The notes under the pieces are model-generated. The model was not told where the DNA came from. It was given only the letters and a program-made list of their open reading frames with translations, and ran no database searches. The translations under genes were made by a program, and so were the position numbers. A stretch of 64,000 nucleotides of DNA from positions 496,001 to 560,000 of the forward strand of contig NW_026859933.1 in the NCBI RefSeq assembly GCF_026571515.1, written 5' to 3'. Positions 10,718 through 63,412 of this stretch are shown here, in pieces; within the stretch, counting starts at the first letter, position 1, and every line of letters starts with the position of its first letter. The stretch comes from Ruditapes philippinarum. Lineage: Eukaryota.

Positions 10718-13343
10718 ATGGGAGGACGTTGTGGTTTTAAGGTCATTGTGCGCCTGATCCATACCATATTGTGTATAGCCATTCTCTCAACTTTGCTATG
10801 GAAAGAAACTGGTAAATTTATTGGTTTGTTGATAATGATAGCAGTCAGTTTTACATTCATACCACAATTATTAAAGTTTTATACTGAAGCAAATGTAAGT
10901 TTGATAGAAAATATATATGTTGGGATTGTCTATTTGATAGAATTATACCTGACAACTTTTGTGTGATAACTTGTGATTGAGTATTTAAATATTATCATCT
11001 TTTTTAAGTTATTTTGTTAAGAAACTTTGTAAATTCTGAATCTGCATATTGTTGTTATTCTGATATATTACAATTGTCATACAATAGGATTGAGGCTCAA
11101 AGCAATTTGTAAAGGAAGTCAAAGCACCCAGTGAAGTTGTTTCTTTGTCTGAACTGTCTTTTGTTTGTTTTCAGGTTTAAGATGGGCTTTAGTAAAGGGG
11201 AATGACCTTGTGTATGGATCAGTGTTCCTGTGTTTATTTGTGATTTCACTGATAATGTACTATGTTGTATGCCTTACCGATCCTGGATATATATACACCT
11301 ATCGTTTTAAAAAGGTATGTACAAAATTGGCATCTGATGGATTGCCTATCATTACAAAATATTTATATTAGAATGTTAAATATTGTTTGCACTAAGCTTT
11401 CCAGTGTTTTGCATTATGATTTTGAGTAAGGAGTTGCAGTATGACTGAATGAATAAGTCTTTCAGATATATTTGGAGTAAATAAGCTTTGCATTAGGATT
11501 ATGAATACTAACAGTATGAATACAATATTTTGAAATAAAAGGAACCACTCTGCCGTCTAGAAACAATAAATAACTATTTCACATAGTTGGAGGTTGATAA
11601 ACTTTGTGAAATAGATAGGGAAAAAAGGACTTTTCAAATTTATTTAGTAAACACTGTTTAATAGGGTCATGCAAATAAAAGGGGAGTGGTGGCCTTGGCT
11701 AGTGGTTACTAAAGGTGTCTGCCCCTCAACCCAGGGATCATGGGTTCAAGCCCTAATCGGGTCACAACCATGCATGTTTCTTCATATTACACCAGTACTG
11801 GTTAGTTCCAGGAAGCGGACTCAAAAGTGATTAATATAAGTTGCAAGAACTGGTTTCGCAATCATGGTTAAATAAAAATGTTTTAAACCAAACCATGTAA
11901 ATAAAAATTGAGATATGTATTTGTAACAGAGATGTGGACAAGTGAATGTTGAAGCTGAGATATCTGAGGAGGAGATGGAGTGTGGAGGCAGTGATTGTAA
12001 CATTCCTCTAACAGAACTTTCTAAACCCTTAGATAAAAGAAATAGATATAAATACAGGTTCTGTGATTACTGTGAAATACAGGTAAAGTATATTAGTGTA
12101 AATTTACATTATGTTTGATGAAATATTACCTATTTTATTATTGGTACAAGTTGATGAAAATGGTGATTATTTATTTTAATACAGTTAATTTGGGCCAAAA
12201 GTTTTATTGTGTGACGTTTATTACTGGGTATATAAAAATTATATTAAAATTTGAATTGTTCTTCTGACATTTTTAATAATTTTTGAGTTGCATTGGTGTT
12301 TAACTATATGATGATTGCTTGAAAGTGCACTCTTCGTTTCCTTTAGGAAAGGAACATAACTGAATTTACTATTTGATTGATGTGAATAATTTCTTTACAT
12401 TTATATAGCCACCTTTACGTAGCAAACATTGTGAGGATTGTCAGATGTGTGTACGCAAGTATGACCACCATTGTCCCTGGTTAGAGACATGTGTTGGAGA
12501 GAGAAATCACAGATATTTCTGGTGGTTCCTGTTTACTACAGCATTACTTATTACCTGGACTTTAGTTATTATCTGGTATGTAATTAAAATTTCTATAGAT
12601 ATGAAGAATAAAAGTTGACCTCTGTTTAGAATAGTACCTTTAACATAATCAAGAAGAAATGGAGAGAATGTGACCTACCACATTTACAAAATATTACAAA
12701 AGAGACTGGAGTTATGAGCTTTGTGACTGTGTAATACTATTGTACATGTAGGCTGGTATGAAAACTATAGTCATGCTTTTTTTAAACTTCCAAGTCTTGG
12801 TCAAAGTTGTATTTCTTATAAGTAGGTACTTCGTAAACAAGTGAGCCACATCTAGTTAAACACCATTAAATTTACATTATCATCTTTCATGGGGCTTGTT
12901 GGAGTTTGAAATGATTACAGAAATAGTCCTGCACTATAATTACCATTGATACAAAAAAGAACCTATAAAGATGTGATATTTTGTTGTTATTGTGTCCCTT
13001 TGTTTTCTTTTACCACAGGGATAGTTTAGTAACAGAGAACACTTGGACAGACTGGTTCCATACAAACATTGTACTTTTCTTAGACATGCTAGTTTTAGTA
13101 TTAGGTGGCTTGGTGGTGACAGGCCTTTTTGTCTTCCATACATATCTAATGACTAATGGACTCACAACATGGGAGACAGCATCAAGGGAGAGCATTACTT
13201 ATTTAAAATATCTTGATGATGAGTATAACCCCTTTGATCAAGGTTGTTGTAGGAATATTTACTCTTTTATGTGTGTAAGTGATATTCAGAAGTGGGAAAC
13301 ATTATATGCAAAACGTGCCAGACTAAAAGATGGCGATGATTAA
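10718..13343 (+). CDS. ZDHHC12: DHHC palmitoyltransferase, ZDHHC12-like
   Basis: Exons 10718-10811, 11175-11314, 11930-12082, 12409-12575 and 13019-13343 join in phase. The product has TM segments, DPG, the Cys-rich domain [44 protein letters not shown], and TTWE and NPFDQG motifs. Confidence 0.9.
11681..11893 (+). mobile_element. Degenerate tRNA-derived SINE in ZDHHC12 intron 2
   Basis: A-box-like TGGCTAGTGG and B-box-like GGTTCAAGCC, then a body CACCAGTACTGGTT...CCAGGAAGCGGACTC and an A/C-rich tail. A related inverted remnant lies at ~35860-35980. Confidence 0.6.
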
Positions 13344-29014: not shown

Positions 29015-32000
29015 TCATTTCAGTTTTACACTTCTCTTGATACCAGCTCGGATACCAGAAATCTCTCCACCATACTTGTGCATCTCTGTTCTTGGTTCTC
29101 TGTACTGTTAAACAAAAACAATTTATGACAGCAACTTATAATCATATAATTTAATTGAGACAATTCAATTACAAGAGTATGATTTAAGTGAACATAATTT
29201 GTCTTCTTTCATCATAGGCAAACATGTTAAATGATTCTTTGAAAAATTCATGCCATAATGATTTCAAATATGGAGTCAATTTTATTTTAACATTGTAAAT
29301 ATACCAAGTTAAAATTCTATCATGGCAAATGTTATAGGCATATAACATTCAAATACTGAACACATCATTTGTGTTCTATACATATATATCCTGATCAGAA
29401 ACAATACAAAGGCTGGTGATTATTTATAAACTCCCAATACTGGCCAAGTAAATTAACTTATTTGCTATTATTTTCCTCAGATTTTAAATCATTTAACATC
29501 AAAGTTATAAAATTATCTCAATTTATGTAATTGACTTATACCTGTCCTTTCCTCCTTATTTTTGCCTTTCTGTATTTCATTCTGTGTTTTACACGTGGAT
29601 TACGTAACTCTTTCTTCTTGTGAGCTGTCAGCCCCTTGTTCTTCTCAATCTGATCACAGAAATAGAGAATGTCTCAACAAAATGAAATAAAAAATATTTA
29701 CAGTTTCCCTTTAATTTTCTAACATTTGTAGGATATCATTTGTAGGATACTTAACATTTCTGAAATGGAGCTAAATTTCTAGTCTTTTGTCCTAGCATAA
29801 TTATAAAATATAAGATCAAAAATACATCAAAATCCACTATTAATATTTGATTCAAACTAGAGCTTATAGAGAAAAGATTTTGATAAAATGCTTATAATTT
29901 CAGTTATTGTTGTCTGAAAAACAATTTCAAAGAAATTACTTAAAACTTGGATCTGTAAACATATAGACTCTATTGAACTTCAGTTAACGCATATAAAACA
30001 AACCTGGTAAGATATTCCTCTTTTACCATCCATATCTTCATCACCGTCATCCTGCTCTTCATTGTTATCCTCACCTTCCTTATCACTGTAAATGGATAAT
30101 ATTGACATTGTTACTGCATTGTTTCATACAACATTTTTACCTATGAAAAACATAAATGTCCCAAAAACAACTTCAAGTTGTGACTTTTGACATAAATTTA
30201 ATTTTTAACACTTGAATGTAAGAGTTACAGGCAAGGTCTGACTCATCTAGAATGTCACAAAATTCTAAAATATTTAATGGAAAATGCCCATGAATAATAT
30301 CAAATAAATTTTATTTTTGGTTTAATAAAAATTGAAAACTTTGATAGGGTAAAAAATCCCTGACACATCAATGGTTCATATTATAACAGGATTTCAAGCA
30401 AACTGTACATGCAGTTTCATTCAAGTTTATTTTAATTTACAGAATTTATGCTTGTATTTGCCTGATAAAAGTCAATAATGCTTGGTATCTTTAAAACAAA
30501 TCCTCTTTTATTTACCTTTCCCTGTCTTGTTCCTCGTCTTCATCAGATAGTTCGGGTCTACCAGCTTTCATCATTTCATAATATTCTAAAGCTTCTCTCT
30601 CTCCTTTAGTCTCATACCTCTTCTCATTCTACAATTATTAGTAGAAATAGTATTACATTGACTTACAAATACAACCCTAAATACACATAAAAATATTTTT
30701 AATTGGATACCTTTGGAAGTTTAGGAAACAGAACTTAAATTCTTAATTAAAAATAAAAAAGACATAGCATAAAGTAAATATCTATGCTCAACATAGTTGC
30801 CCTTGATGATAACCAATAATATTGATCCTGAAAATATGTACGAGGTTTCAAGAGAATAGCTTCAGTGGTTCATGAGTTATGAAGTTACAGGCAGAAAATA
30901 AACCAATGTGTTTACCTATTATCTCTAATTGTAATAATTTGAAACTTCAAAATGTTAGTGTGACCTTGACCTTTGAAGTAGGGACGCGACACATTGTCTT
31001 GATGTGGTAGACATTTGTGCCAAGCTATTTCAAAATCCCTTAATGTATGACAAAGTTACAGTCCGTACAGGAAAGAAGTGGGGATGCACAGACAGACGTA
31101 CTTACAAAATGGTACTTATGTGACTTTTCCTTTGATCTTTTTAGCCATTTTTTAGTCAAACAAGGCTTAATAAAAGTCACACAAGTAAAAACGGAATGAA
31201 TATGATCAAAGAGAATTTACTGTTACCTATTGTTCTCCAAGTCACACAAGTACCTCTGGGTTTGTACAGACAGACAATGTGATTCTAATATGCAGCCCTT
31301 TGGGGGGCATAAAAATATATATTAATGATAAACTCAAAAGACTTACCTTACTATCTTCCTTAACAGCACCTGGAGTTACGACCTTTTCTTTATGTTTCTT
31401 TGCATGTGCTTTTCTGTCCTTTTCTTTAATTCTACCAAAATAATAAACATCACTTAACTAAAAACATTATCCAATCTTTTATGAAGACTGTCAGTAAAGT
31501 GGCATTACCATGGGATCCTGGCAACAGTCTTCTGGTTTTGGTGAGACACATTTTGATCTTGTTTAGTGATTTTTTTTTATACTTTACAAGTACTTTACTA
31601 GTATCATATATAGTACATGAAAATTAAACATAAACCCAAGACTTGATGTTATTTATCCCAGGAAATTAAATCTTATTGTAGACACATCAATATTGGCAAA
31701 AACAGTTTATGTCAAAATGAAGTAATAGTTACTGACAAATGAAAAACCATGTAATAGTTACTGACAAATAAAAAACAATGTAATAGTTACTGACAAAAGA
31801 AAACCAATCATTTTGCAAACAAGAAACATGGCAATGCCATGAAACCAGGTTTTCAATTATCACCATTGTAGATAAATATGTTGTATTTGAAATACAAATA
31901 CAAGCAACAAACAATGTAACTATGTGCAATGTTAAACATGAATAATGTAGGAGGAATTGCCACAGAGGAAGTGTTCACTATAATTATATTCTGTATAAGG

Positions 32001-35000
32001 AAAAAAAACAAAGGGCCATAATTAAAAAAAAAATTATTCAATCACAAAACCCCGACAATATGCGCCAGGGCACTGGATGACAAAGCTTCAGTAACTGTGA
32101 AAGTTTGAACAAAATCCGTTGAGAAATGTAGGAGTTCAGCACAGAAGAATTTTTCACTATATATTCTGTATAAGGAAAAAAACAAAAAAACACAAAACCC
32201 CGATAATGAGAGCCAGGGCACTTGATAACAAAGCTTCTGTGAAAGTTTGGTCAAAATCTGTTAAGAAATGTAGAAGTTGCCGGGGTAAAAATTGTTCACT
32301 ATATAATCTGTATAAGGAAAAAAACAAAGGGCCATAATAAGGTCAAATATTATACAATCACAAAACCCTGACAATATGCCCCAAGGCACTTGATGACAAA
32401 GCCTCTGTGAAAGTTTGGTCAAATTCCGTTGAGAAATGTAGGAGAAGTTGCCAGGGTAAAAATTGTTCACTATAATTATATCCTATATTGGGAAAATAAA
32501 CAAAGGGCAATAATTTGGTCAAATATTATCCAATCACAAAACCCCGACAATATGCGCCAGGGCACTTGAGTACAAAACCTCTGTGAAGGTTTGGTCAAAA
32601 TCCATTGAGAAATGTAGGAACAGTTGGACACAGAAGAAATTATTCACTATATATTCTATATAAGGAAAAAAAACAAAGGGCCATAATTAGGTCAAATATT
32701 ATCCAATCACAAAACCCTGACAATATGCACCAGGTCACTTGATGACAAAGCTTCTGTGAAAGTTTGGTCAAAATCCGTTGAAAAATGTAGAAGTTGCCGG
32801 GGTAAAAATTGTTCACTATATAATCTGTATAAGGAAAAAAACAAAGGGCCATAATAAGGTCAAATATTATACAATCATAAAACCCTGACAATATGCCCCA
32901 AGGCACTTGATGACAAAGCCTCAGTGAAAGTTTGGTCAAATTCCGTTGAGAAATGTAGGAGAAGTTGCCAGGGTAAAAATTGTTCACTATAATTATATCC
33001 TATATTGGGAAAATAAACAAAGGGCAATAATTTGGTCAAATATTATCCAATCACAAAACCCTGACAATATGCGCCAGGGCACTTGAGTACAAAACCTCTG
33101 TGAAGGTTTGGTCAAAATCCATTGAGAAATGTAGGAACAGTTGGGCACAGAAGAAATTATTCACTATATATTCTATATAAGGAAAAAAAACAAAGGGCCA
33201 TAATTAGGTCAAATATTATCCAATCACAAAACCCTGACAATATGCGCCAGGTCACTTGATGACAAAGCTTCTGTGAAAGTTTGGTCAAAATCCGTTGAAA
33301 AATGTAGGAGAAGATGCGCACAGAAGAAATTGTTTACGCCCGCCCGTCCGCCCGCCCGCCGACATACCTCAATCTTATAACCACTTTTTTCCTTCGGAAA
33401 ACCTGGTTAATAAAACAATGAAACAAAACACTTTCATATTTTAAAATTTATGTTTGTACACATCACAACATATTAAGCTTAAATATACTAATAGTGAGAT
33501 ACAATCAGGTAATGTCAGATACACATATGTGACTGGGGAAGAAGATAAAACTTACCATGTTAATTTGTCCCAAAACTGAAGGCATTTGTTAGAACATTAG
33601 ATGTTCATTATCAAGATAGGTTTATAAAATATATTATATAAGACATACCTGACAAAAGTTCTTGTTTTCTCTATGTTCTTGTCAAATTCTACATCTTCAC
33701 CATTGTTAAGTTTCTCTACTATTTCATCTATCTCCTCTTTCATCTGTTCATCTAGTGGTTCCAATTGCTTCATTATCTAATAACAATACATAATATATAT
33801 ACATGCAATTTGTAATACATGGTAATTTTGCTCTCTACAACTTTAATTAGTTATACAATTTGTGCTTTACCTGTGTCAAAAACAATTTGAACAGATTAGT
33901 AAACATGTTGACCCTACATATAACAAAATGTTGTTTATCCTAAACAAGGTATTAGAGATTTTCATTTCGTATATAAATCAAGTAGAATGGAAGTGTGCAT
34001 GTTTTTTTTCTATTACAATAATGCACCCCTCCTCCACTGTTCTTATTCCCTCATGTACAATTTACAGTTATGTTATGATGTCCACCATAATTTGTTCATT
34101 CCAGATAAATGCGTTTACCCTCTTATCATCAGTACATTCAACAACTAGGTTACTGAATGAAAATTAACATTCTACAGTCTACAAAAATTTGTTATACACA
34201 AAATATTTGTGCGACTGATAAATGTATCAACAATTTTACTGTAGATTGGAATAGCCCTTTAGTCCAACAATGTTTTCTGACCCTTTTATCATACATAGGT
34301 ATTAGAAAAAAAATATATCTTAATTTTGAGAGCTTTATGGAATAATATTGCATAGTACATGTATGCAAGTCATTCAGATGTTTGTGAACATGGCCTATGA
34401 CTTTCATGATTATATTTCTGCAGAGCTGAACTCTATACCGTGCAATATCATACCATAATGCATTCAATATCAAGGTATATTTTCTAAATATAAACTAGCA
34501 TCCAGTAAATCATACACTACAAGTCAATAACCAAGCAAGGTTTTGAATATTGTTAACAGTACAAGCCTGTTTATACCAGCTTCTTATGAAAGAAGCAAGA
34601 GAATATTAACAATTTGAACAAAAATAATCCTTCTTAAAATGGTCTTATTTTTATTTCAGGTTTTTTCTCCCCGTTTGTTTTTTCATTGCACCAACACAGT
34701 ACAGGTAATATGGCGACTTTCAAGCTTTTCTGGTGGAGGAAGACCTTCCTGGTGCCCTTCCGGGCATATTTCAAGTATGAACAGGCACCTGAGTAAAAAC
34801 AATAAAAAGACAAACATTAAAATGTGGTGCCACTTACATTTCTGTACTGTAACAATCTTTTGATGACAGGATGGTTATGTACTGGAGCTTGTTTAGCTTT
34901 CAACATCAAGTAGAACACAATATTGGTGCAGTAACTGAAATATAATAAAATATTGATACATTCACTAGAACATGAAACAAAATGCAATACAGGTACAGTA

Positions 35001-38000
35001 ACTGAATTGAAACAGAAAACAGTATTGGTGCAATAACTATAAATTAAAACACAACACACTATTGGTAGCTAACTATTGGTGGAGTAACTGAACTGAAACT
35101 GAATATATTTACAATATTGGTGTAGTTAGGCTTTGTCAGCAGGTGATAATTTATTATGCACCATCAGAGATCGAAAATTCCAATTGTCGGCTCGTAATTA
35201 CAAGTAGAATTTAAGAGAAATCTATGCAGGACGAGTAGAGAAATGTTGCCTGCACATTGGATTTAGAAGCTACTAGTCCTGCAGTATGAGTGACTCTAAA
35301 AATATTTTTCGATGCCTGACCATAATGACTTTGAGTTATGCTCTGGACAAAAAGTATGAAAATTTACAATAAAAAATAACTCCAAAATTATGCAAATGAA
35401 AATTTAAGTACTTAAGCAATACACTTCTTCTTGAGAGATCTATCCATCTATGAAGGTTGAATTCTAATACTATTTTAGTTATGATAATGGAGATTTGTAT
35501 ATTTAAGACAACATAAAAGTAACATATCAGAAAGTATTTAGGAAACTCGAACATTATCATATTGAACTACAGTAAGTGTCAAAACATAGAAGATTCATAA
35601 GACTTACTTCAAATCAAGTTTGAGTTTTGTAAGAACATAATCAACAGCTTTCCCTTTCAGGTCCTTCCTGTCTATCCAATCTTTCAAGGGGCATAACTTA
35701 TCTTGTACTTCTGTCATCTACAATCATTAATTGATCAATTCATTAATCTTATTTACATCAGCAAATATATCATCATTAAATATTTTCAGTCATTTTTGTT
35801 AAAGCATATTCATTTTTAGGTCAATTAAGAAAAAGCTTGAAGCTTATTTGAAAAAATTCCTGAGTCCACTTTTAGTAATTTTTTACAGTATTAGTGTCAT
35901 ATGATAATCAGGAAATACAACCGTGATCCTAGCAGGCTTTGAACCTATGGCCCCTGGGTTGAGAGGCAGACATTTTAACTGTGATAATATTCATATAACA
36001 AACCATCATTATTACATTAAAAACAAACCTTAGATTTAAAGTCTTCAATTAAGGTGATCAGTTCTGGAGACTCTTTCTTCAGCAGCTGTAATAAACAAAA
36101 CATTTAATGTTACAGCAGCTGTTAAAAAAGACCAACTATTCAATATTAAGAAGAATTTAAGTACACTTTTACATGCCAGTGAAAATACAATAAAACATGC
36201 TTTATTTGCGTTGCTTACAATTTTCATCTGAAGTTTGAAGTTAATCAGTTAACCGGAGTGTTAATGTCTCAAATTGTAAACTTCTCTTTTTGTAGTCTTA
36301 AGATATATTTTACATTTTTATGTTCATGTTTGTATTTGGAAAATATTTTTTTCTTGAAAAAGCAATATTAAATTTACCTTTATTTTTTCTCTCTTTGACA
36401 ATTTGGAGAGATCTTTTACAATCTTCTGTTCTTTCTCTGAGGTATCCTTCACTTTCTCTGATGGCTGTTTAGAGAAAAACAAACTTAGATAAACTTAATA
36501 TTGAGTCACTTCAACATTAACATTGTTATTGTAAATTCCAGACTACAGTAAATATGAAGTTTTTAATTATTTTTTACTTCAAAAATCTCATTCAGTAATA
36601 GAACAGCACCATTATAGAGATAATGATCAAATGCTGGTACTAAATGCACTTATATCACAAGTTTCATCTTCTCTAAATCAAGCTCACTCCCAAAAATTCA
36701 TCACAGAAACACTGACAACAGCTGTCTGAGAAGCAATACACTCCTCTTACAGAAAAGGGGACATTCTTTTCTCTTACGTCTAAAATGTACATCTCATTCA
36801 ACAAAGTTTATTAAAAATAAGTATGAAATATCAAATAAGTTGTTTTGTGGCTTAATAAATTTGTTTTTAACTTAAAAATTATTTTTAGCTTTAACTAAAA
36901 AAGGAAAAAAAATCAAAATCACTTTCCACATTATCTATGATACAATTTTTGTATAGAATTATGACATTGAATGCATATAACATCTCCACATAAAAAGTAT
37001 GACATCCTGGATAAGAGCATTGCTGCAACCATTCTGAAGCACTTACAAACAATATCAATCAGAAAATTTCAATACATAATGTAGACTCAACAAGATTGCA
37101 TTTGAGAAAAATGCTATGCCACCGCATTAATACCTAAGCTCTAGGTCTTTAGGGCATTTACAAGAAGGTATTTTAAGTTTTTGAAGCCTTGTACCTTGTA
37201 CCTACAGACAATAAGATTTTTTTATTTTTTACTATATGTATATATTGAAATTCAGTGACCCCCGGGGCGGGGGCAATTTTGACCCCAGGGCTATAATTTG
37301 AACAATCTTGCTAGAGGTTCACTACACAATGTTTCATGCAAAATATCTAACCTCTAGCATTTGTCAATTGCTAGAAGAATTTTTTTTAAAGTTTTTACTA
37401 TATACATATAACGAAAACCAATGACCCCCGGGACAGGGCCGATTTTGACCCCAGGGCTATAATTTGAACAATCTGGGTAGAGGTCTACAACACAATGCCT
37501 TATGCTCTAGGCCTTTTGGGTCTTTACAAGTAGGTATTTAAAGTTTTTACTATATGTACATATAGTGAAAATCAATGACCCCCGGGGCAGGGCCGATTTT
37601 GACCCTAGGGCTATAATTTGAACAATCTTGGTAGAGGTCTACCAGGCAATGCCTTATGCAAAATATCTAAGCTCTAGGCTATTTGGGTCTTTACAATAAG
37701 GTATTTTAAGTTTTTACTATATGTACATATAGTGAAAATCAATGACCCCCGGGGCAGGGCCGATTTTGACCCCAGGGCTATAATTTGAACAATCTTGGTA
37801 GAGGTCTACCAGACAATGCCTTATGCAAAATATCTAAGCTCTAGGCCTTTTGGGTCTTTACAAGAAGATTTTTTAAGTTTATTCTTATAATTCCTTTTGG
37901 TTGCCATGGCAACCACATTTCTGCATGGAATGAAATTCTTTGAACAACTTTGGAAGCCCTTCACCAAAGGATCAATCCTGTCAAGTTTGGTTGAAATTGG

Positions 38001-38533
38001 ACTATTGGTTTTTCACAAGAAGATTTTTTACGTTCACTATATAATCTATATAACAATGACCCGGGGCGGGGCCTATTTTTGACCCTAGGGCTATAATTTG
38101 AACAATGTTGGTAGAGGTCTACCAGACAATGCCTTATGCAAAAATATCTAAGCTCTAGGCTATTTGGGTCTTTACAATAAGGTATTTTAAGTTTTTTACT
38201 ATATGTACATATAGTGAAAATCAATGACCCCGGGGCGGGGCCGATTTTGACCCAGGGCTATAATTTGAACAATCTTGGTAGAGTCTACCAGACAATGCCT
38301 TATGCAAAAATATCTAAGCTCTAGGCCTTTTGGGTCTTTACAAGAAGATTTTTTTAAATTTGTTCTTATAATTCCTTTTGGTTGCCATGGCAACCAGATT
38401 TCTGCATGGAATGAAATTCTTTGAACAACTTTGGAAGCCCTTCAACCGAAGGATCAATCCTGCCAAGTTTTGGTTGAAATTGGAACTACTGGTTTTTCAC
38501 AAGAAGATTTTTTAAGTTCACTATATAATCTAT

Positions 38534-38571
<38 letters not shown>

Positions 38572-41500
38572 AACAAACACACACACACACAGGTGAATCG
38601 CTATATGCCACCGCATCGCAGATGCTGCGGTGGCATAATATAAACATAAAATAAAGATTGTTTTGACAATATATTTATACTAAACCTGAAAGATGTCCAG
38701 TCCGAAGTCCTGGTCATCAAGTTGTTCTGCCATCTGTTTTTGTAACCTAAGGGCTTCTTTTTCCTCGAGGACAGCCTCAGCATCATCTTCCTCCATGTCC
38801 TTCATATCTGTAAATATAACACCAACATTTATTTCTCTTATAATATCACTCTATACTAGATCATACTAAACTGTTAATCAATGCATTAATGGTGAAAGGA
38901 TCAGACAGTTTATGTATTTACTATGCCTGTTTGAAGGTCAGATCATCTTGACTATTTAACTAGGAGGAAATTCACTATTTCCATTAGAGGTGGAGTTCAA
39001 TGCTACAACAAATCAATTTATATTAGGCAAACGGATGACATTTTAACATGGTAATAACTTTCATCATATCAAAATAAGTTGAAGAAGTTGTTCTTGATCC
39101 ACTCTTTAAGCATAGCTATTAAGTAGACGTATTTATAGTTTAGCACAATATTTCTACCTTAAATTACAGGGTAGTTATACTCACCAAAGTATCTGTATTT
39201 TAAAATATTTCTAATATTTTTCATGCATAATGAATGGCTTACATTCTCGATAAAAACTAAGACACTTGCTTTTTTCCTTTAATATAGTATGGTAATTTCT
39301 ATCATAAAAACATGTACATACATACAAGATAAACACATATGCCAGAAGGCTATCCCTCATGCTGGCCATATTGCCTTACAGAGAATGAATTACTTCTCAT
39401 ATATACCTTATAATTAACATTTAAAACTCACCAATATCATCATCTCCATAATATTTACTTCTCCTACTTCCCCACGCTTTCTGGTCTGGCAATCCTGAAA
39501 TAAACAATAATCAATATATAGTCACACTAAAAACAAATTTAAGTTAAAGGGTATAAAGCTATATCTTATAAAATATTATATTTTTTTTTTAATTTATCAA
39601 CATAATAAGTATAGTAGTTCCATAATCTTATGTTCAATTCTAGACAGAGTTGTAACATAGAATGTCTCTGGTATTTAATACACATTATGACATGAATATA
39701 GTATGTAAACAGAATAACAATGTTTGGGATAAAAATATCATTCTGCTATTTCAACTAGGGTTTCATAACTAGTGCAATAATTTCATGTATGCGCCATTCG
39801 CTTTTAAGGCAATTTATACCATATATTTTTCATACAAGCATTTTGTAAGTATTATTTTTTAAATTTTTGCTGCAGATATATGGCTTTATTCTCTTTAAAT
39901 AAAAAAGAACATGATACTTCAATACAAATCAAGATTATAATATATAAATAATAAATCATTTATAAAATTACCATCATCATCATCATCATCATCCCCAGAT
40001 TGATCTTCAAGGTCGCTACCAAGGGCTTCTTTTTTCTCTAATTGTTTAACTCGTCTGAGCTGAGCCTTTAAATTACGAATTTCTTCATCGTCACTCTCCT
40101 CCGAGTCCAAGGCTAGAACTTCCTCCTGTAATGTAATAAGTGACCTACATACAAGTTAGAATTTTGTATAATCCTAAAATGTATAACATATCTAAATACA
40201 AGAACTTCTCATTTTTACCATTCTAATATGTAAATTCAGACACACAACCAGTTAAGAAGACATGTATATTTAACGTGTATACACAACCAGTTAAGAAGAC
40301 ATGTATATTTTACGTGTATACACAACCAGTTAAGAAGACATGTATATTTTACGTGTATACACAACCAGTTAAGAAGACATGTATATTTTACGTGTATACA
40401 GAACCAGTTAAGAAGACATGTATATTTTATGTGTATACAGAACCAGTTAAGAAGACATTTATATTTTACGTGTATACACAACCAGTTAAGAAGACATGTA
40501 TATTTAACGTGTATACACAACCAGTTAAGAAGACATGTATATTTAACGTGTATACACAACCAGTTAAGAAGACATTTATATTTTACGTGTATACACAACC
40601 AGTTAAGAAGACATTTATATTTCACGTGTATACACAACCAGTTAAGAAGAACCATGTATATTTTACGTGTTACACAACCAGTTAAGAAGACATGTATTAT
40701 TTTACGTGTATACACAACCAGTTAAGAAAGACATGTAATGATATTTAACGTGTATACACAACAAGTTAAGAAGACATGTATATTTAACGTGTAATAACAT
40801 AACCATTAAGAAGACATTTATATTTAACGTGTTTACACAACCAGTTAAGGAAGACATCGTATAATTTCACGTTTATACCAACCAGTTATAAGACATTATA
40901 ATTTAACATGAATATATAACCAGTTAACAAGACATATAAATGTCAGTACAATCAGTTAACAAGCTATGTAAATGTAGACACAATCAGTTAATACACATGA
41001 AGTGGTATACAACCAATTAACAAACCTCATCAGATTGTTGTATTTCCTCATCATGCCTGTATCCTTTATCTAGAAGAATCTGAAACAAACAAGAGACAAT
41101 GTATGTTTCATTAATATATTGAGATGCAATATACTGTCGGAAATATTGGACACAAAAATATTCATTGATTACTTATTCATTCATCAAGTTTTTGAATTAT
41201 TGTTGGAAAAGGACTTTTTACAGTACAGTATATAAAAGCTATATATTTCCTCCCTGTTAGTGTAGTTTACAAATTTATTGTCTGAATCCGTCCAAAATAT
41301 CTGTATGAAAGAACTAAGATCACAAATATTTTCATCAATTAAGGCTGCATTGAAGTTTTAGTGAATTTCATAATATATGTATTTCTGATGCAATTATTTG
41401 ATAATAAACCATACACAGACAGAGAAATGAAAAGTACAACAATTTTATCTACCTTTTCTTTATTAGCATGGAATTCGTCCACATCATCATATATATACTC

Positions 41501-41651
41501 CCTGGAATCTGGATCTGGCTCCTCACTATTTCCATACAACTTCTCATCATCCGAGGCATACTCCGGTACAAAGTCACTACTCCACTTATGAACCTTTGAC
41601 TTCTTTTTCCGTGGGCCAGTTTTCTCTTCAACATCAATGTTCCTTTTTCCT
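29015..41651 (-). CDS. UTP3: Something about silencing 10 / UTP3 (SSU processome subunit); 15 exons recovered, start-codon exon not located
   Basis: Exons 41651-41453, 41079-41026, 40125-39972, 39494-39432, 38807-38686, 36464-36378, 36085-36029, 35717-35608, 34934-34838, 33776-33649, 31431-31347, 30628-30516, 30085-30004, 29649-29542 and 29104-29015 are all phase-consistent. Motifs: DDVDEFH, AWGSRRSKYYG, KESPEL, YCTNIVFYLMLKA..PVHNHPVIKRL (Sas10/Utp3/C1D domain) and ISYQIEKNKGLT...RNPRVKHRMKY...YGGEISGIRAGIKRSVKLK*. Confidence 0.95.
30758..31315. mobile_element. Degenerate HINE-like element in a UTP3 intron
   Basis: TGACCTTGACCTTTG core motif, GACA microsatellite and terminal GGGGGGCATAAAAA. 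The left boundary is approximate. Confidence 0.55.
31843..33408. mobile_element. HINE-like element with ~172-bp core arranged as a 517-bp higher-order repeat
   Basis: Inverted ends AACCAGGTTTTC / GAAAACCTGGTT and a (CGCC)n microsatellite at ~33337-33360. Three monomer types each recur at +517. Confidence 0.8.
34670..34795 (-). mobile_element. 3' fragment of the tRNA-Ser-derived SINE family
   Basis: Degenerate match to 28355-28495 (ACACAGTA.AGGT.ATATGGCGAC...TGGTGGAGGAAGACC...GGCACCTGAGTA). Confidence 0.7.
37089..38638. mobile_element. HINE-like element with ~167-bp core, a 480-bp internal duplication and an (AC)n microsatellite
   Basis: ATGCCACCGCA near the left end and the hairpin ATGCCACCGCA...TGCGGTGGCAT at the right end. 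GACCCCCGGGG units recur; (AC)n at 38537-38590. Confidence 0.8.
40240..41020. repeat. 39-bp minisatellite (~18-20 units, degenerating rightwards) filling a UTP3 intron
   Basis: Unit GTATACACAACCAGTTAAGAAGACATGTATATTTTACGT; it explains the 13-aa periodic ORFs in the ORF track. Confidence 0.95.
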
Positions 41652-41681
41652 CTATAGAGATAAAGAAATAAAAGTGATCAA

Positions 41682-41918
41682 TGAGCCGTGTCATGACAAA
41701 ACCAACAAAGTGGGTTTGCGACCAGCATGGATCCAGACCAGCCTGCCCATCTGTGCAGTCTGATCAGGATCCGTGCTGTTCGCTTACACACCCTATAGCA
41801 AGTAGAGAAACTGATAGCGAACAGCATGGATCCTGATCAGACTGCGCAGATGCGCAGGCTGGTCTGGATCCATGCTGGTCGCAAACCCACTATGTTGGTT
41901 TTGTCATGAAACGGCTCA
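41682..41918. mobile_element. Fold-back (hairpin) MITE, copy 1
   Basis: Almost the whole element is a ~100-bp inverted repeat, TGAGCCG...GTTCGCT / AGCGAAC...CGGCTCA, around a ~30-bp spacer. Confidence 0.88.
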
Positions 41919-45178: not shown

Positions 45179-47067
45179 AATATTGCTCAGCCCATTTTTG
45201 ACATACGTTTTAATTTTTATGATTCCGAAATTGTTAAATTTAGTTTTGTTCAAAATGGCATGTTTTTCTTAGTTTCAAATTATATCATTCAAACAATCCA
45301 TTTTTCTCATTTCTCGGTACAATATTTATCACATTCACTCAAAACCATCAAATATTTTTTATATAACTTTTAAAAATTGATCTTTAATCGGATACCGGAA
45401 ATGATTCAAAAATGGACGAACATTACACCGAATTTTGATATCTACAAGTTTGCTTCTTTAAAAAGAAGCATGCGAGAGGTATTTTTGCAGCATCGGTGGC
45501 AGATTTATTTAATTCGAAAATATTTGAAAATATTTTTGCATGAAAGGCACAATTAATGAATGTTTATGAATTACCATTATATATATTGAATATAATATCA
45601 TAATGAAAGTTTGCTTTATACTTCATTTTTAATGTCTTAAAATATTATATGTCGGAGAAATGGACATTTTCTTGGCGCATCTGGGATATTTTTTCTACAA
45701 AGGGAACAATTTATATTATGTTATCAAACTATTTTTTAAAAAAAAATGGCATCTATTAAAAGTAGTATCAAAATAAAAGTTTCTTGTAAAATTCAATAAA
45801 CAATTTATTGATTAATGTTTTGGTAAGTATTTGGAAACATTTCCTCTCCAAAACGTGCATAAAGTACAATCAAACAATTTCAAGTCCCGGATTTAATTAA
45901 GAAAATGTTTACATCATTTGATTGGAATAAAAAGTATATAAAGTTGCTTGCCTCTAACCACAATATTTCAAGAAGCGTAATTTACTCATACCGGTTTAAA
46001 CAAACGTTAAAGGAGCAGCACACGATTCACCCGGTCATCTAATAGTGTATGGTGATATTTTAGCTATAATGTTCACTGTTACTATTTTTCGGAACATGAA
46101 ATAGTAAAATGCTAATAAAAAACAATAGTCGAAATATACAGTTTAAAGGATTAAATTTTCGTTTAAGTTAATAGATAATAGATAGATAATGTTCATTTTA
46201 TTTTATAAGCTTGATAAGATATACTGAAAGATCCTTTAGATTATTATACTAATTTTAGAATCAGGATTTCAGTTTGAAATCTTAGGCCTACTTCTTCCCT
46301 GTAAATTTTATAGGAAGTCAAATCGATCTCAGACGGACTTCGTCCTAAAAAAAGTGGCCGGTCAACATTATGGTGACCAGTTATCAGTATGGATGTCACA
46401 GGCTGGTCATCATTTAGTGACAAAGTGTTATCATTTTTGGCTGCACGGCAGAATAACGGTTAAATAAAAATATCAACTCGGCATATAAACAAAATAGTTC
46501 TGTAAATAGAACACTTCAAAGACTTGAATCAAATGAATAACTAAATTAAAATGTGTGAGTGTTTATTATATATGCACACTCAAATTTTGCAAAAACAATT
46601 ACAAATGTATAAAAAGTTAAAAACATAAACATAATTATGATCTAAAAACAAAAACCCAATTGCACCTTTCTATCATTGCTTTTCATTTTTTATATATAGA
46701 TATTAGATCGTGACTAAGACACAATCTGTTATGTCAAAATAAAAATTATAAAAAGCGTTATTTTTGTAAAAGATTATCCGGTTAAGTTTTTTTTTCTACC
46801 TGCTTATACTTAACAGGCGTATGAATGAATTCAGAACACATATATTGTAGCATATGTAGATACATATATTGTAGCATATGTAGAGAAGACTATAAATTCA
46901 TGCTTGACTAACGCGCAGCATATCTGACTAAATGTTTATTTAACAGAGTCTTAAAATAAATCTTGCAGTACTCAAACACGCTTGCGTTCTTGTTGGCTTA
47001 TTGTTAATATTCACGCTACGAATCATATCTAAATCATTATAAAACAACGAAACAGTACAGTGTATTT

Positions 47068-50000
47068 TTAATCAATGTAAACAGGGAAGAATGTGTCCAT
47101 AGCTGTTGATGGTGGGTCTGCAGTCGTGTAAACCATGAATTGGAAGTCTGACACTCTGTAGTCAAAAGCGTTATGATATTCTTGATCATCATTTGCTTGA
47201 TACAATTTTCCACACCTGGAAATAAAAAAAAAAATATATACCACTAATATTCGAATTGATGTAAAAATAAATCAGTATTATAATTTGTTCGCAAAAGTAG
47301 CTATTTAAGCACTTAAACTTAAGGTATGAATTTAAAGGTTCATTTGATGTAGCATCATTTCTCATTTACCTTTTCAAAATGCTGCACACATTACATCAGA
47401 AACGTAACAACAGCAGCAGCTTCAATCATTTGGAAAAAAAAAAAAAACAAAAAAAAAACAAAACAAAAACAAAACAAAAAAAAAAAAAACAAGCTCCGTG
47501 ACATCGTGTACAGTACAGTTCTTTTGTCGATATTACTTAAATACTTTTATAAACAATGTCTCACTTCGTTCACCTTGCTATAAATATCCACTTTAAAAAC
47601 ATTTCTAACTTTCAAAATATCTTGCATAGTATGTTTGAAAATGACGTACAAATAATAAACCAATATATTCATGTTGTAGGAATTTGCTTACATTTTCAAA
47701 CATTTTTTTTAAAAACATACAGTTATGTCTGCACACGATGACAATGACCTTACAATAAGATATATTTACGGACAAGATTTGTTTTAAAGTACATAAACCC
47801 TACGTGTTGAAATATCAATAAAACACCAGAGATTAAACATATTTGATTTCCAAAAATAATCCACTTGTTAAATCTGTATACATGTTGTACTTGAAAATCA
47901 ATTTAAGAAGTTGTCCTATCAAATCGATAGAAAAATAAAGCAGAGATCTATGTTACAGAAATGTAACACCGTAATTAAATAGCAATCCATTATTAGGTCA
48001 AGCAATGCCAGCGAAGCGAGAATGTACTAAAATAGGATATTTAAAAGCAGTAATCACAAACGCCGTAAATTAAATTAATTTTATGAAATCCGATATCGAT
48101 ATCGAGTTTCTTTAGATACTAGTAAATTTCCTACTACACTGTACTTTTAGTTTTTGATTCCTCATTATAGAAATGTATGTGTTCTTATAATAGAATCAAT
48201 ATTTCTACCCTATACCTTAATTAAAATGAGTGGATCTTTATAAATGTTCGTTACTATTACTAAGGTTATAAGTAGTTGAAACATTTATTTCAGCTCGATA
48301 ATAATTAAAGCTTTAAGATTATTTAAACCGTTTAAACTAACTAGTACTGAATGATGTCTCATATATGTCCGTGATCAAATATACCCCAAAATAGCAGACA
48401 CCTTCACAACAAGGCCGCCACTTATCTTCAAAGATTATCCGTTTAAGATTACATATTCACTTAAGTTATTGTGTTGTTAGTACTATCTCGTAGTTGGTAG
48501 ACCAAGTTTCATTCATTAATATCAATGGATACAGAGTTAAGAAAAGTACGTGTAAGTGTTTCTTACTTCTCAAAATCTAATAAACTTCTGTCCATTAAAT
48601 CGTCCCAAAGTCCATCGTAAATTTCATTGTAAATTTCTCGTGCTTTGTCCAGAGCCTTTCCTTGATCTGCATCGCTAATGTCTATAATATGAGGCTTACC
48701 GAACCTAAAAAATAACATAATTATATATTCTTTCGTTATCTTTTTTCAGCTTTTATTTCAGAATGGCTAATTCAATACAAATAATGTTCTTAATTTTCTT
48801 TTTTAAAAATCTAAATGATATAACTAGGTTCTTTAAATCTTATTTCAGATCGATATCATTTAAGTATGTTATCAAGAGTATTGACTATGTGCTCAGATTG
48901 AATAGTTAAGCAGCTTACCTTAGAGCCCCCATCAATGCTTTCCTCAAAGGTTCCTTCTGGAAGTCTAAACTTGATGTGACACTGATCATGTTAACATCTC
49001 TATACTTGAGAAACGTGTGTACGTTCCCATTTCTGTCTATCATAAACGTCCACCTGAATAGCACATACTTACAACGTTATAATTGTGCAAGTAAATACTA
49101 GATAACTCAAATGACTTGTTCAGAGAGATTCTAGAGTTATATAATATCGTTTTAAAATGAGATATTCGCTTGTTTTCTTCGTGTTTTTTGTTTGTTATGT
49201 ATTTAAATATATCGCCTCTACAAATGTACACTACAATAAATTACAAAGATTTTACTTACATGTATTTACTTTATAAAGGTATTTATTGATATATGCTACA
49301 GCCGAAATTGCGTTATATTTACAACAATAACAGTTATTATGAAAATGTAATGTTTACTTTTCGTTGACCACGGACTTTTATTTCACGGACTTAAATTGTA
49401 AATTAAAGTCCGTGGTAAAACATTGTCAAAATATAAAGAAACGAAACAACGCCAGTATTTCTCTGTAATAAATGAAAATAGTTCAAAATACCTTAACGTA
49501 TCAGATACATGTATATTTGATCGCAAAAGAAGATTTGTTTTTTGTTTACCTTTTTGAGTCTTTTATTTTTTGTCCAAGGTCACCACTTAAGTTTAGCAGT
49601 ACAGCAACTTCCTTAAACCCAATTTCTTCAGGAACTAAGACCTTCTTAATGGAAACTTTTGCTGTAATAAATGACGCACGTGTTTGATGTAGTTTATTCG
49701 TATTTTCCAGAAGTATATAATTCTAAATATTTATATTTTAAAGTGAATTGGTCAATAATGGAAGGTCTGTAATTATACCATAAATAATTATGTTGATAGT
49801 ATTAAATATCATACATCACAAGATATTACGAAACGTTTTATAGACAAAAATGAACTTTTAGCAAAGTATAACTAAATGAGTTGAGTAAATGAGTTGAGTT
49901 GAAAACTGTAAACCTACCCATTTCTTCCTCAACCTTCTTTACGTCTGTTTTACTAGCATCTTTACTTGTTGCACCTTTAGCAGCGGTTTTAGTTCCAGAA

Positions 50001-50086
50001 GCCCCTCCTTTAGCTGCACCTGTTTTGGTCGTCGTCTTAGTTGCTGGCTTGGATGCTCCTCCTTTCGCTGCTGCTTTAGGTGGCAT
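47068..50086 (-). CDS. 233-aa protein: K/A/G/T-rich N-terminal tail plus a domain resembling the C-terminus of IQANK1; no IQ motif or ankyrin repeats
   Basis: Exons 50086-49918, 49661-49550, 49053-48919, 48704-48567 and 47215-47068 (702 nt) join in phase: MPPKAAAKGG...GDLGQKIKDSKRWTFMIDRNGNVHTFLKYRDVNMI...LRKALMGALRFGKPHIIDI...GLWDDLMDRSLLDFEK...DYRVSDFQFMVYTTADPP...FFPVYID*. The gene model is solid; the homology is from recall. Confidence 0.8.
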
Positions 50087-50891
50087 TTTCTTTCTCTCTT
50101 ATTTCCTTTAAAAATCAGAAATGTAAATTTCTTTCTCTACGATAAAGCTATGTACACTTTAAATTACTTGTAATCTTAATGCGTCCACTTCGTTTATATC
50201 AACTGTATTTCTACTTTAAATTCTGTATATTTATAGCAAAGTTTAAACTGATTACTAATCGTATATTTTACCAATACTATAAAATCAATACAGTATTGTG
50301 TTAGCGTCATATAAAAGCCAATATATAGAACTCTAAACGGGTGAATCCCCAGGGAGTTTACAAAAATATTGTACAGTATTTCGAAACAAATTTAAGGCAA
50401 TAGAATCCCCAGGTGAATTTTTATTTAATAGTTTTTCTTAGAGGTTTAAATTTTATTAGTAATATAAGCTTAATGTCTGAGAGAAACCAATCTGTAAAGG
50501 TAATAAACATGATGTAACGAAGATTACAATAGCATTGTTATAATTATAAAATTCTTATCTGATATTCTGAATTAATTTAATCATCGTCGAAAGAAGTTAT
50601 ACCACAAATTACTATTGTATCATAGTTTTGAGATGACTTTCTAAAGAAAAATAAGATTTACATGCCTCAACTCCTGTAACTTCATAAACTTTTAAGCAAT
50701 GAAAGAATGTTTCCGTTATTCTAGGCCTACTCTCAGCACAATGGTATTCCAATGGGTCTTCTGAGCAAAACTATGTTTTGGATATTTTTTTATGAAACAA
50801 TTCACTTACTCCTGAAAATCATCGTGTGAGTATTATCAAGTCCTAGAGGAATGGGAATCAGGACTGCGTCGTAGACAAATTGTAAATAAAA

Positions 50892-50904: not shown

Positions 50905-52618
50905 AATGAAAAAGGTGTAATTTGTATATTACTCTTTTTGTTAGGATGACTGAAAACCAGATACATGTGTATATGTATAAACAAGCTCCGCAGTTTTCCG
51001 CATCATTTGCTATATGTTGCTAGCACAACTATTTTGGAAAACAAAAATAATAGCGAACTTGCAAGAATTTTATGAAGTTTTGTGGATAGACATATTGCTT
51101 TATCTTCGAAACAAATACATATATATACTCGTTTCAGAGTTTACCATAAACTCCAAAATATAATTTTGCATCACTTACTAAAATTTCATTTACATGAGAT
51201 GAGTTGTTTTTTCTTCAAGAAAATAATGCTTTGTACGAAATGATACGACGCAGTTGAAAATGAAATATGATACGACTAGTTGTATTTTCATTGTAGGCTG
51301 TATATTGGTTCCGCTATTGGCAGATGAGAAAAAAATTCTAAGGCTTCATTTTTCGATCGCTTTTTCAATCATCTAAATAATCACATGAATACTAGAAATT
51401 CCGAAAAAGTGTATCAAACGTAAAATCTATTGTAGTACGTGATTGCACGTGTTCTAGTGCACGTTACACATGCCGTATATTCTACATGTAATACTGGTAA
51501 ATACGGTAAATGAGGATGGTTCTAGTGCTGCTTGCAAACCTGTTCACGTGAGTTTGAAACTGAAAGGGTGGTTACTTTTTTCATTTGCAGTTTTATGTTA
51601 CGAATTTTCAATATTTTAAGGCCAACTCTTCTGTAACAATGTTGAACAAGCTGTAACAATCCGGAACGACTTTTGTTTAATCAAAAGAAAGAATTACAAT
51701 TTTGAAAAATGTCACTTGCTTTTGGAAGAGAGGTATGCGTAAATTGCGTAAATTGCCTACCTTTGTTACTTTGTACGACAATTTCTGACAATTGTGTCAT
51801 TTAGCCAAATCCTTGTCTTAATGATCTTGAATGTTGCCTTTAATTGCTTGAAAAGCAGTACTTGTCAGTTAAATTAATATTCGGGTAGGAAATTTTCTGA
51901 TGCAAAGAATATTTGCACATTTCTGTCACAAATTTGAAATACTGTAAAAATAAAGAGAATGAAAAATATTTTAAATGCCAGTGTTAACTTTCTTTTCTCT
52001 GTTTATGTGACGTCTGAAACACGTGTACAATTCAGGCCAGCCTTAGGTAACGTAGTTTCACCTCCCGTATGGGATATGGTAGGGATGAGATAAATATTCT
52101 TTAATCTAAAGTGTGTTTTTTTATACATAAATATTTTAATCTTATTTGATTTGAAAAACCCAATATGTGTTAAGCAGCTGTTCAATGTTTTACAAGTTCT
52201 ATTACACATACAGGTCTACAGCTATGAAAGTTGCACTATTATAGCTGTTTATCATGCAAGTGCTACAAAATAAAATCTTTATATTCTTAAATGTAAATAT
52301 ACCGGTATGATATTTCTTGTGATACTTATCCGTACTGATCTGAAAAATGAATATATAATTTTTTCTTGTTTTTTTTACCTTATGATTGAATACTAACTTA
52401 TAAAAATCATTCGATGCAAAACAACAATCTTAATATATTTTATAAATCATTCAAAACTACATATTTCAAGAAACAATTTATTTTCTAAGCTAAATCTGTC
52501 CTACATTCCCCTACCTTTACATTTCAACAATTTCTTATCCTATATATCTTTTCAAAAATACAATACTTTAAACATTCATATAAAATAGGTCCTCATAAAT
52601 CATTTGCCTTATAAATAT

Positions 52619-52876: not shown

Positions 52877-53889
52877 CAAATTAAGTTTAATCAAGATTTC
52901 CTGGGTTACAAGAAAAAATTTTAAAATTACGATCCCAAAATTTAACAAAAGGAACCCAATAAGTGTTTCGTAGTTTATCTGATTTTCCAAACAATTATTC
53001 ATCGTTCCCGTGGCGACGTTCCTGGTCAAGCAGTTTACCAGTACTAGTTGCCTTCACTTTCGCAAGGAACTGATTAGGAGTAGATAACAATTGCTTCCTG
53101 AAATAATACGCTTTATTTGGCATCTACATGTACAATGATAAAAATGTGATGTTAGACACTTTGGGCCTGGGTCTGCAAACTTGTTAATAAAAACCAAAAG
53201 AGAATATTGTAGACGATGTGTGTTATTTGTATACGTACTGTTTTCTCTCTTGAATAATTAAAAAGTGAAGTTTAAATTGATCTCAATGAAAAATAGTCAG
53301 CAGCAATGTGTTAATGTAAAGTTAGATAAATTTAACAATTTAACATTTGAAAATTTTATTCTGTTATTATATTCCCAACCTTCATGTGATTGCGATAGTA
53401 ACAATCGGGAAACGTTTATTCATGACATCGACATCCCACTAAAATAGAAAAGCCCATAAACATTGATGATTACTTTTTAAGTTCTTGAACTGGTTCTGTA
53501 TCAGCTTGCCAAAAGTTTATATTACCCGAAGTAGGTCTGAAAATGAGAATTTGCAGACGAAATATAGTGATTTCTTACCAACATCTAGGCCTGTCTTCGA
53601 ATTTTGGAGATAAAATTCCAGCCTCAGTATTTATCCAGTTAAACGATCAAAACTGGAAATATAAATAACGTAATTTCACTTTATTATAACTAATACTCAT
53701 AAAATTGAAAAAATATTTTGATAATAAAATTAATTCGGAACTAATGTCAATATTGACCTAAATCCCAAAAAAGAAAACCCAGTCCTGTCAATTTCCACAT
53801 TTGTAGCCTTTTTTATCAGTATATAAATTCAGTTTCTGCTCATTGAGTTATATTTTGTATTTATATATATCTCACAGTAGTTATCCATC

Positions 53890-63412
<9,523 letters not shown>

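What the first reader, a model, noticed from the sequence alone, without database searches (positions are those of the whole stretch)
47068..50086. Stand-alone IQANK1-C-terminal (dynein AAA5-like) mini-protein with a basic flexible tail
Seen: a complete, clean 5-exon 233-aa gene that the ORF track mostly misses. It has a ~55-aa MPPKAAAK... low-complexity basic tail joined directly to a globular domain with RWTFMIDRNGN...FLKYRD...LMGALRFGKPHIID. From recall, this pattern matches the C-terminal domain of IQANK1 (W-P-L-x-x-D...FLRYRD...LLGA-x-RYGKP), which itself echoes dynein heavy-chain AAA5 (RWPLMIDPQGQ...A-x-x-FGKP). The short introns leave no evident room for IQ or ankyrin exons. Inference: an uncharacterised family in which this degenerate AAA-like module works alone, possibly in cilia, with the basic tail binding microtubules or another polyanion.
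Basis: partly seen in the sequence, partly recalled or inferred. Interest (0 to 1): 0.7.

Follow-up and report, generated by a model that had tools for sequence, protein, structure and literature searches.

The report
Mini-IQANK1 with freed dynein-like domain
This clam gene is a real, spliced, cut-down copy of the little-studied gene IQANK1 that keeps only a positively charged tail and a domain predicted to fold like one non-working piece of the dynein motor; similar short copies occur in many invertebrates and some flagellates, and it likely acts as an ATP-free adaptor on microtubules, which is untested.

Summary
Observation confirmed. The five-exon, 233-aa minus-strand gene is real: all four introns are joined in 4 of 4 assembled runs laid, and two single contigs cover the whole CDS with no extra exon. 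It equals RefSeq XP_060605937.1 of Ruditapes philippinarum, labelled 'IQANK1-like' though it has no IQ or ankyrin match. A separate full-length IQANK1 lies about 310 kb away on the same contig. Both genes start with an MPPK basic exon and share three C-terminal introns in position and phase, so the short gene is most likely an IQANK1 duplicate that lost the phase-1-to-phase-1 IQ/coiled-coil/ankyrin block. The tail is inherited, not new. The globular part (aa ~66-233) is predicted to be a dynein AAA5 large subdomain without Walker A or lid. Short forms occur in molluscs, nemerteans, echinoderms, an annelid, a sponge and euglenozoans; two other lineages show them in tandem with long IQANK1. They diverge faster than long forms (36% vs 63%). 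One or several origins is unresolved. A ciliary role is untested: no X-box, no solved axonemal homologue. The scan noted the same gene kind on another genome (e1-7857249). New variant of a known, unstudied family.

The parts
49918..50086 (-). Exon 1 (coding part, aa 1-56): MPPK start and Ala/Lys/Thr/Gly-rich basic tail, predicted disordered; ends in phase 1, like exon 1 of full-length IQANK1
   Evidence: pLDDT about 50; long-gene exon 1
49550..49661 (-). Exon 2 (aa 57-94): entered in phase 1; start of the globular domain (helices before strand S1)
48919..49053 (-). Exon 3 (aa 94-139), 135 nt as in long IQANK1: strand S1, degenerate P-loop position (no GKT/S), helix, strand S2, helix; most conserved part (D100, F108, N115, R131, G136)
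48567..48704 (-). Exon 4 (aa 139-185): FGKP, strand S3 ending in D147 (Walker-B position, no following Glu), helices; 138 nt vs 129 nt in long IQANK1
47068..47215 (-). Exon 5 (coding part, aa 185-233 + TAA): region at the place of the AAA5 pre-sensor-I insert (conserved D194), strands S4 and S5; the protein ends where the AAA+ lid subdomain would begin
50087..50252 (-). 5' untranslated region, contiguous with exon 1 in contig X9 record 18, with an in-frame stop five codons before the ATG
46567..47067 (-). 3' untranslated region as far as contig X10 record 1 reaches

Best explanation
This is a spliced, conserved short paralogue of IQANK1 that likely arose by gene duplication and loss of the middle IQ/coiled-coil/ankyrin exons, and it likely works as an ATP-free adaptor whose basic tail would grip acidic tubulin tails, probably in motile cilia, while its predicted dynein-AAA5-like domain would dock a protein partner. 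Shown: gene structure and splicing; a separate full-length IQANK1 on the same contig; shared MPPK first exon and three shared introns; no Walker A motif. Predicted: AAA+ large-subdomain fold with no lid. Inferred: origin by deletion of a phase-1 to phase-1 exon block, which keeps the frame; no nucleotide binding; loss of calmodulin control (no IQ) and of the long coiled-coil spacer, so the domain would sit close to the polymer and not be calcium-gated. Untested: location, tubulin binding, partner.
For: Splicing in 4 of 4 runs. Long IQANK1 at G000:C8420:200699-233215 (+) with tail, IQ-like, coiled-coil, ankyrin and C-terminal exons. Its three C-terminal introns match the short gene in position and phase 2, with the same 135-nt exon; its tail exon ends in phase 1 (both candidate donors) and its first C-terminal-domain exon starts in phase 1. 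Locus L101 of another animal holds a long gene followed about 1.8 kb later by a 255-aa tail-plus-domain gene with the same phases; L037 and L102 hold a long gene followed by a domain-only copy. 18 of 27 long forms of 520 aa or more start with a basic low-complexity tail. AlphaFold pLDDT 83-97 per block for aa 61-233. All listed Foldseek rows are dynein entries or axonemal-repeat entries (best E 3.5e-4). VIA top row is yeast dynein 3336-3519, Z 8.6, rmsd 4.1, 123 aligned, covering AAA5-large 3389-3518 (PMC4047620 Table 1). Profile-profile match to clam dynein AAA5: probability 95.5%, E 1.5e-8, 112 columns. AAA5 has lost nucleotide binding and serves as a docking surface (PMC4047620, PMC7683685 passages). 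A lysine-rich N-terminus binding polyglutamylated tubulin is documented for DRC4 (PMC5555654). Every named organism belongs to a lineage with cilia or flagella (my knowledge).
Against: No strict X-box within -2000..+300 of the short gene or -3000..+300 of the long gene, although the strict pattern occurs 6 times elsewhere in the window. No solved structure, including the axonemal 96-nm repeats in the library, matches the family profile at E<=1, which argues against a stoichiometric doublet component in those species. The fold match is modest: Z 8.6, tied within 1 with other dynein AAA domains and only about 1.4 above Rubisco activase; TM by query about 0.33 with the tail included. Pfam AAA_9 is below its cut-off (22.3 vs 27.4 bits). 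Non-ciliated lineages were not surveyed, so the ciliary correlation is a named-hits impression. Short domains are only 36% identical among spiralian-type animals, weak for a fixed, conserved partner. No paper found ties IQANK1 protein to cilia.
Confidence: 0.42

Rival explanations
1. Dynein mimic: the freed AAA5-large domain copies the AAA5 surface that packs on AAA4 or docks the linker, and so regulates or chaperones dynein heavy chains in trans.
For: Dynein is the nearest fold (for the relative P0008, TM 0.54-0.58 to dynein clusters). D194 (Asp in 45 of 46 short forms) aligns near the conserved GD of the AAA5 pre-sensor-I insert, which contacts AAA4 in dynein (PMC4047620).
Against: 10-21% identity in structural alignments. 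The three-strand insert of dynein AAA5 is modelled here as helix and loop. Linker-docking residues were not mapped. The family is not in solved dynein complexes.
Confidence: 0.15
2. Decoy (microProtein-like): the short form competes with full-length IQANK1 for the same site or partner and damps its calcium/calmodulin-dependent action.
For: Same tail and domain without IQ/ankyrin; both genes coexist in the clam and in tandem in L101, L037, L102.
Against: Clam short and long domains are only 31% identical, and short forms drift faster than long ones, whereas a decoy should track its target.
Confidence: 0.13
3. Nucleic-acid or chromatin binder: the Ala/Lys/Thr tail acts like a histone-H1 or sperm-basic-protein tail, and the domain is a passive fold.
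For: Tail composition and pI 10.4. One of 46 short forms hits Pfam HC2, histone-H1-like. A weak match to a ribosomal-protein tail, E 0.5. A PPK start fits the X-P-K N-terminal methylation motif (abstract start of 10.1101/2020.04.13.040139).
Against: These are composition-level matches. The same tail heads full-length IQANK1, whose IQ and coiled coils suggest a cytoskeletal scaffold (inference).
Confidence: 0.15
4. Annotation fragment, or a decaying duplicate without function.
For: RefSeq names it only '-like'; short forms evolve fast.
Against: Whole-CDS spliced contigs. 77% domain identity to Mercenaria and 64% to Mactra, with lengths 233-235 aa. 4 of the 5 listed coding differences checked are synonymous and the fifth is F202Y (the variant tables were cut, so this is a part). 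No IQ/ankyrin-exon match in the window or 30 kb upstream; TFIIS-type and Sas10 genes flank it.
Confidence: 0.03

Closest known systems
IQANK1 (IQ motif and ankyrin repeat domain-containing protein 1; human gene formerly the lncRNA FAM83H-AS1 per PMC12757458 passages)
   Same: MPPK basic first exon; C-terminal domain (34% by BLASTP over 155 aa to the clam's own long copy; TM 0.95 between short relative P0008 and long-form clusters); three shared introns.
   Different: No IQ, ankyrin or coiled-coil middle (about 350 aa shorter); separate gene; domain evolves faster (36% vs 63% mean identity).
Dynein heavy chain AAA5 large subdomain (Pfam AAA_9, PF12781)
   Same: Five-stranded AAA+ alpha/beta fold (predicted); RW..ID and (F/Y)G.P motifs align; no Walker A.
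   Different: Stand-alone rather than in a six-domain ring; no small subdomain or buttress; pre-sensor-I region modelled as helix/loop; below the Pfam cut-off.
N-DRC subunit DRC4 lysine-rich N-terminus (PMC5555654)
   Same: Basic N-terminal segment that could bind polyglutamylated tubulin (analogy of charge only).
   Different: No homology; binding shown for DRC4, untested here.

Membership tests
IQANK1 (full-length architecture) | IQ motif | tested here: not met
   No Pfam IQ hit in P0001 or any of 46 short forms; no such exon in whole-CDS contigs; IQ is detected in some long forms.
IQANK1 (full-length architecture) | Ankyrin repeats | tested here: not met
   0 of 46 short forms hit Ank families vs 8 of 8 long forms; tblastn of 42 long forms finds only C-terminal exons in the window plus 30 kb.
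IQANK1 gene family (homology) | C-terminal domain homologous to that of IQANK1 | tested here: met
   E 7.8e-23 to the 581-aa long form P0018; pairwise E 7e-31 to the clam long gene.
IQANK1 gene family (homology) | Shared exon-intron structure and basic first exon | tested here: met
   Three introns shared in position and phase; phase-1 ends of the tail exon and of the first domain exon. The long gene's splice sites are read from DNA, not from RNA.
Dynein AAA5 (PF12781) | Pfam gathering score 27.4 bits | tested here: not met
   22.3 bits, E 7.7e-5; 30 of 46 short forms hit at E<=0.01; P0008 passes with 29 bits.
Dynein AAA5 (PF12781) | AAA+ large-subdomain fold most like AAA5L | tested here: met
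   Predicted model only: (Z 8.6; AAA1 and other dynein domains tie within 1).
Dynein AAA5 (PF12781) | Small subdomain with buttress, inside a motor ring | tested here: not met
   Protein ends after strand S5; alignment ends at yeast 3519, the large/small boundary.
Active AAA+ ATPases | Walker A GxxxxGKT/S and Walker B acidic pair | tested here: not met
   Absent from the query; the pattern matched 2 of 47 short (position not checked) and 0 of 47 long forms; D147 has no following Glu. ATP binding was not assayed.
Motile-cilium proteins | RFX X-box in promoter | tested here: inconclusive
   No strict or relaxed-specific X-box; best palindrome has 4 mismatches at -943. Transcription start unknown, and not all ciliary genes have one.
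Motile-cilium proteins | Localisation or expression in ciliated cells | not testable with these tools
   Run samples are coded and contigs give no levels.

The most novel reading that the evidence does not exclude
The IQANK1 C-terminal domain is a dynein AAA5 large subdomain that left the motor ring early in eukaryotes, and mini-IQANK1 genes, generated more than once by in-frame loss of a phase-1 exon block, use it on a microtubule-binding tether as a trans-acting mimic that tunes axonemal dynein independently of calcium.
Probability: 0.12. Interest if true: 0.8.

Novelty: new variant of a known kind. Interest (0 to 1): 0.45.

Why it matters
IQANK1 protein has essentially no functional literature in the library searched, and the human gene was long treated as a lncRNA. 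A naturally minimal, soluble-looking version (tail plus one domain) kept across many phyla shows which parts are the core and gives an easy construct for structure and pull-downs. It also shows a dynein-AAA5-like module living outside the motor, and a frame-preserving exon-block deletion as a route to new short paralogues. Database labels ('IQ motif and ankyrin...-like') hide this subfamily.

Tried and rejected
Pfam on single exons: no hit for the five exons; the whole protein was needed. Sequence search of solved structures: only E 0.5-1.3 hits; family profile: 0 hits at E<=1; the long form matched only through ankyrin repeats in the 60 rows shown of 402. hhalign against one dynein sequence gave only 28.6%; the 5-sequence profile gave 95.5%. 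Raw-read lay: low depth, no joints listed; no holder is on record as RNA ('no RNA holder listed'). More short paralogues in the clam: searches with P0001, P0008 and P0010 found only this gene and the long gene (lower bounds). No DNA-level similarity between the short and long genes, so the duplication is old. Single versus multiple origin: trees need 8 label changes but starred branches force only 1; AU tests did not reject one clade (p 0.154, 0.132, 0.247). In the last tree most animal short forms group together (41 rows, 37 short, SH-aLRT 94) and euglenozoan short forms sit with other long forms (94), which hints at two or more origins without showing it. My short/long labels came from length and tail composition, so 'short forms have tails' is partly circular; P0137 was first mislabelled long (relabelled); rows with under 140 domain columns and near-duplicates were dropped. 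Metagenome scan with P0125 found nothing. dN/dS was not computed: no orthologue DNA. Literature: IQANK1 (37 papers, 36 listed), 'IQ motif and ankyrin' (9), with cilia (2), LOC642574 (1), K230010J24Rik (recalled mouse name; 1), flagellar+ankyrin+IQ+AAA_9 (0). Judged from titles and abstract starts, none describes the protein's function, the dynein likeness or short forms. Supplements were not read; ciliary proteome tables could list orthologues under other ids.

Full report
Observation. The gene is on the minus strand, with five coding exons (50086-49918, 49661-49550, 49053-48919, 48704-48567, 47215-47068), GT-AG introns of 256, 496, 214 and 1351 nt in phases 1, 2, 2, 2, and 233 codons. A search with exon 3 returned an identical 233-aa protein, XP_060605937.1 of Ruditapes philippinarum, and 233-235-aa orthologues in Mercenaria and Mactra. 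All four joints are present in 4 of 4 contig sets from four studies, and two single contigs cover the entire CDS without any further exon. One of them extends 166 nt upstream unspliced, across an in-frame stop, so the reading frame cannot be longer in that transcript. Four raw-read RNA runs, sampled at 4-12%, gave low depth and no listed joint.

It stands alone. tblastn with 42 long relatives finds only C-terminal-domain exons in the window plus 30 kb upstream. A TFIIS-type gene starts head-to-head at 53891 and a Sas10 gene lies downstream. The genome search found a second locus on the same contig, which is a full IQANK1: MPPK basic exon at 200699, IQ-like and coiled-coil exons, ankyrin exons, more coiled coil, then the C-terminal domain ending at 233215. 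Searches with three different short proteins found no third locus (lower bounds).

Origin. The two clam genes share the three introns inside the domain in position and phase, including a 135-nt exon. The long gene's tail exon ends in phase 1 at either candidate donor, and its first domain exon begins in phase 1. Removing everything between leaves exactly the short gene's layout, in frame (splice sites of the long gene are read from DNA). The tail is not an addition: 18 of 27 long relatives of 520 aa or more also start with a basic low-complexity stretch. Metagenome locus L101 from another animal shows the expected arrangement: a long gene and, about 1.8 kb downstream, a 255-aa tail-plus-domain gene with the same phases. 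L037 and L102 have a long gene followed by a domain-only copy. I infer duplication and internal deletion. The reverse order (insertion into a short ancestor) is not excluded. The duplication is old: no DNA similarity and 31% domain identity.

Family. The representative search gave 246 hits at E<=0.001, of which 150 were listed. Of 126 rows with at least 140 domain columns, my script called 47 short-with-tail, 48 long, 14 fragments of long forms and 17 unassigned (labels rest on length and tail composition, and one row, P0137, was mislabelled). 31 of the 47 have MPPK near the start. Named short forms: Solemya, Mizuhopecten, Plakobranchus, Haliotis, Lineus, Tubulanus, Amphiura, Patiria, Ridgeia, Oopsacas, Neobodo and Lacrimia. 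The vertebrate hits read looked like fragments of long forms. Short domains average 36% identity (36 pairs) against 63% for long domains (10 pairs) in comparable animals; hidden paralogy and two unnamed rows may contribute. Trees are poorly resolved. They hint at separate animal and euglenozoan origins, but AU tests did not reject a single clade (p 0.13-0.25).

Structure. AlphaFold with 46 sequences gives a disordered tail (pLDDT about 50) and a confident domain (83-97 per block from residue 61) with five core strands. Foldseek's listed rows are dynein entries or axonemal-repeat entries (best E 3.5e-4). VIA-align ranks yeast dynein 3336-3519 first (Z 8.6, rmsd 4.1 A, 123 residues), with other dynein AAA domains tied and other AAA+ proteins at Z 7.2 or less. 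Yeast AAA5-large is 3389-3518 (PMC4047620, Table 1 passage). Sequence picks AAA5 specifically: Pfam AAA_9 in 30 of 46 short forms and hhalign 95.5% against clam dynein AAA5 exons. There is no Walker A, the Walker-B position has one Asp only, and the chain stops where the lid would begin. AAA5 in dynein binds no nucleotide and acts as a docking face (passages of PMC4047620 and PMC7683685). Conserved charged residues D100, R131, R139, K142 and D194 (42-46 of 46) suggest a kept binding surface (inference; surface exposure was not computed).

Mechanism. Best guess: an ATP-free two-part adaptor. The tail would bind acidic tubulin tails, as the lysine-rich N-terminus of DRC4 does (PMC5555654, abstract and passages), and the domain would hold a partner. 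Without IQ and spacer it would be calcium-independent and short-range compared with IQANK1. Against this: no X-box, no match among solved axonemal chains, fast divergence, and no survey of non-ciliated lineages. Rivals are a dynein mimic, a decoy of IQANK1, and a nucleic-acid-binding tail. A non-functional fragment is effectively ruled out by the transcripts, 77% domain identity to Mercenaria, and 4 of 5 checked coding differences being synonymous (partial tables). Identity as a mini-IQANK1 paralogue is about 0.95; the specific mechanism about 0.4.

Known versus new. The gene model is in RefSeq under a misleading name. Six literature searches on the gene and its names (titles and abstract starts seen, supplements not read) found no description of IQANK1 protein function, its dynein likeness or short forms. 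PMC12757458 (passages) treats the human gene as the former lncRNA FAM83H-AS1. An earlier AI note of this scan (e1-7857249) describes the same gene kind on another genome; I had reached this reading before seeing it. Its tandem arrangement recurs in L101; its X-box, which I tested because of that note, does not recur here. Verdict: real, new variant of a known but unstudied family; interest 0.45.

Noticed in passing
window 53891 onwards (+): TFIIS-type gene (Pfam Med26/TFIIS helical bundle) head-to-head about 3.8 kb upstream; spliced in the same runs.
   Followed up: partly
window about 29500-41700 (-): Sas10/UTP3-like gene downstream (Sas10 C-terminal domain).
   Followed up: partly
window 4921-7354 (+): LINE-type element: endonuclease and reverse transcriptase in two overlapping open frames.
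   Followed up: no
window about 12969-13343 (+): Last exon of a DHHC palmitoyltransferase-like gene (E 4.7e-5, below cut-off).
   Followed up: no
window 17350-60795: Several 145-173-bp tandem satellites and a 39-bp array at 40242-40935; short dispersed repeats near 49738-49773, 51217-51276 and 53025-53074 attract many reads.
   Followed up: no
G000:C8420:200699-233215 (+): Full-length IQANK1 gene with an Arg/Gly-rich MPPK first exon, about 14 kb before the IQ exon.
   Followed up: yes
L101:2094-10530; L037:1-2340; L102: Long IQANK1 followed directly by a short copy: with tail in L101, apparently domain-only in L037 and L102.
   Followed up: partly
proteins P0125, P0137: Intermediate architecture by eye: tail, IQ-like helix, then domain, without ankyrins; P0125 and its long relative P0116 both come from contigs of 10,474 bases. 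IQ was not confirmed by Pfam for P0125.
   Followed up: partly
proteins P0014/P0158/P0159; P0002/P0160: Local expansion of short forms: three records in Lineus and two in Mercenaria, each set on contigs of equal length.
   Followed up: no
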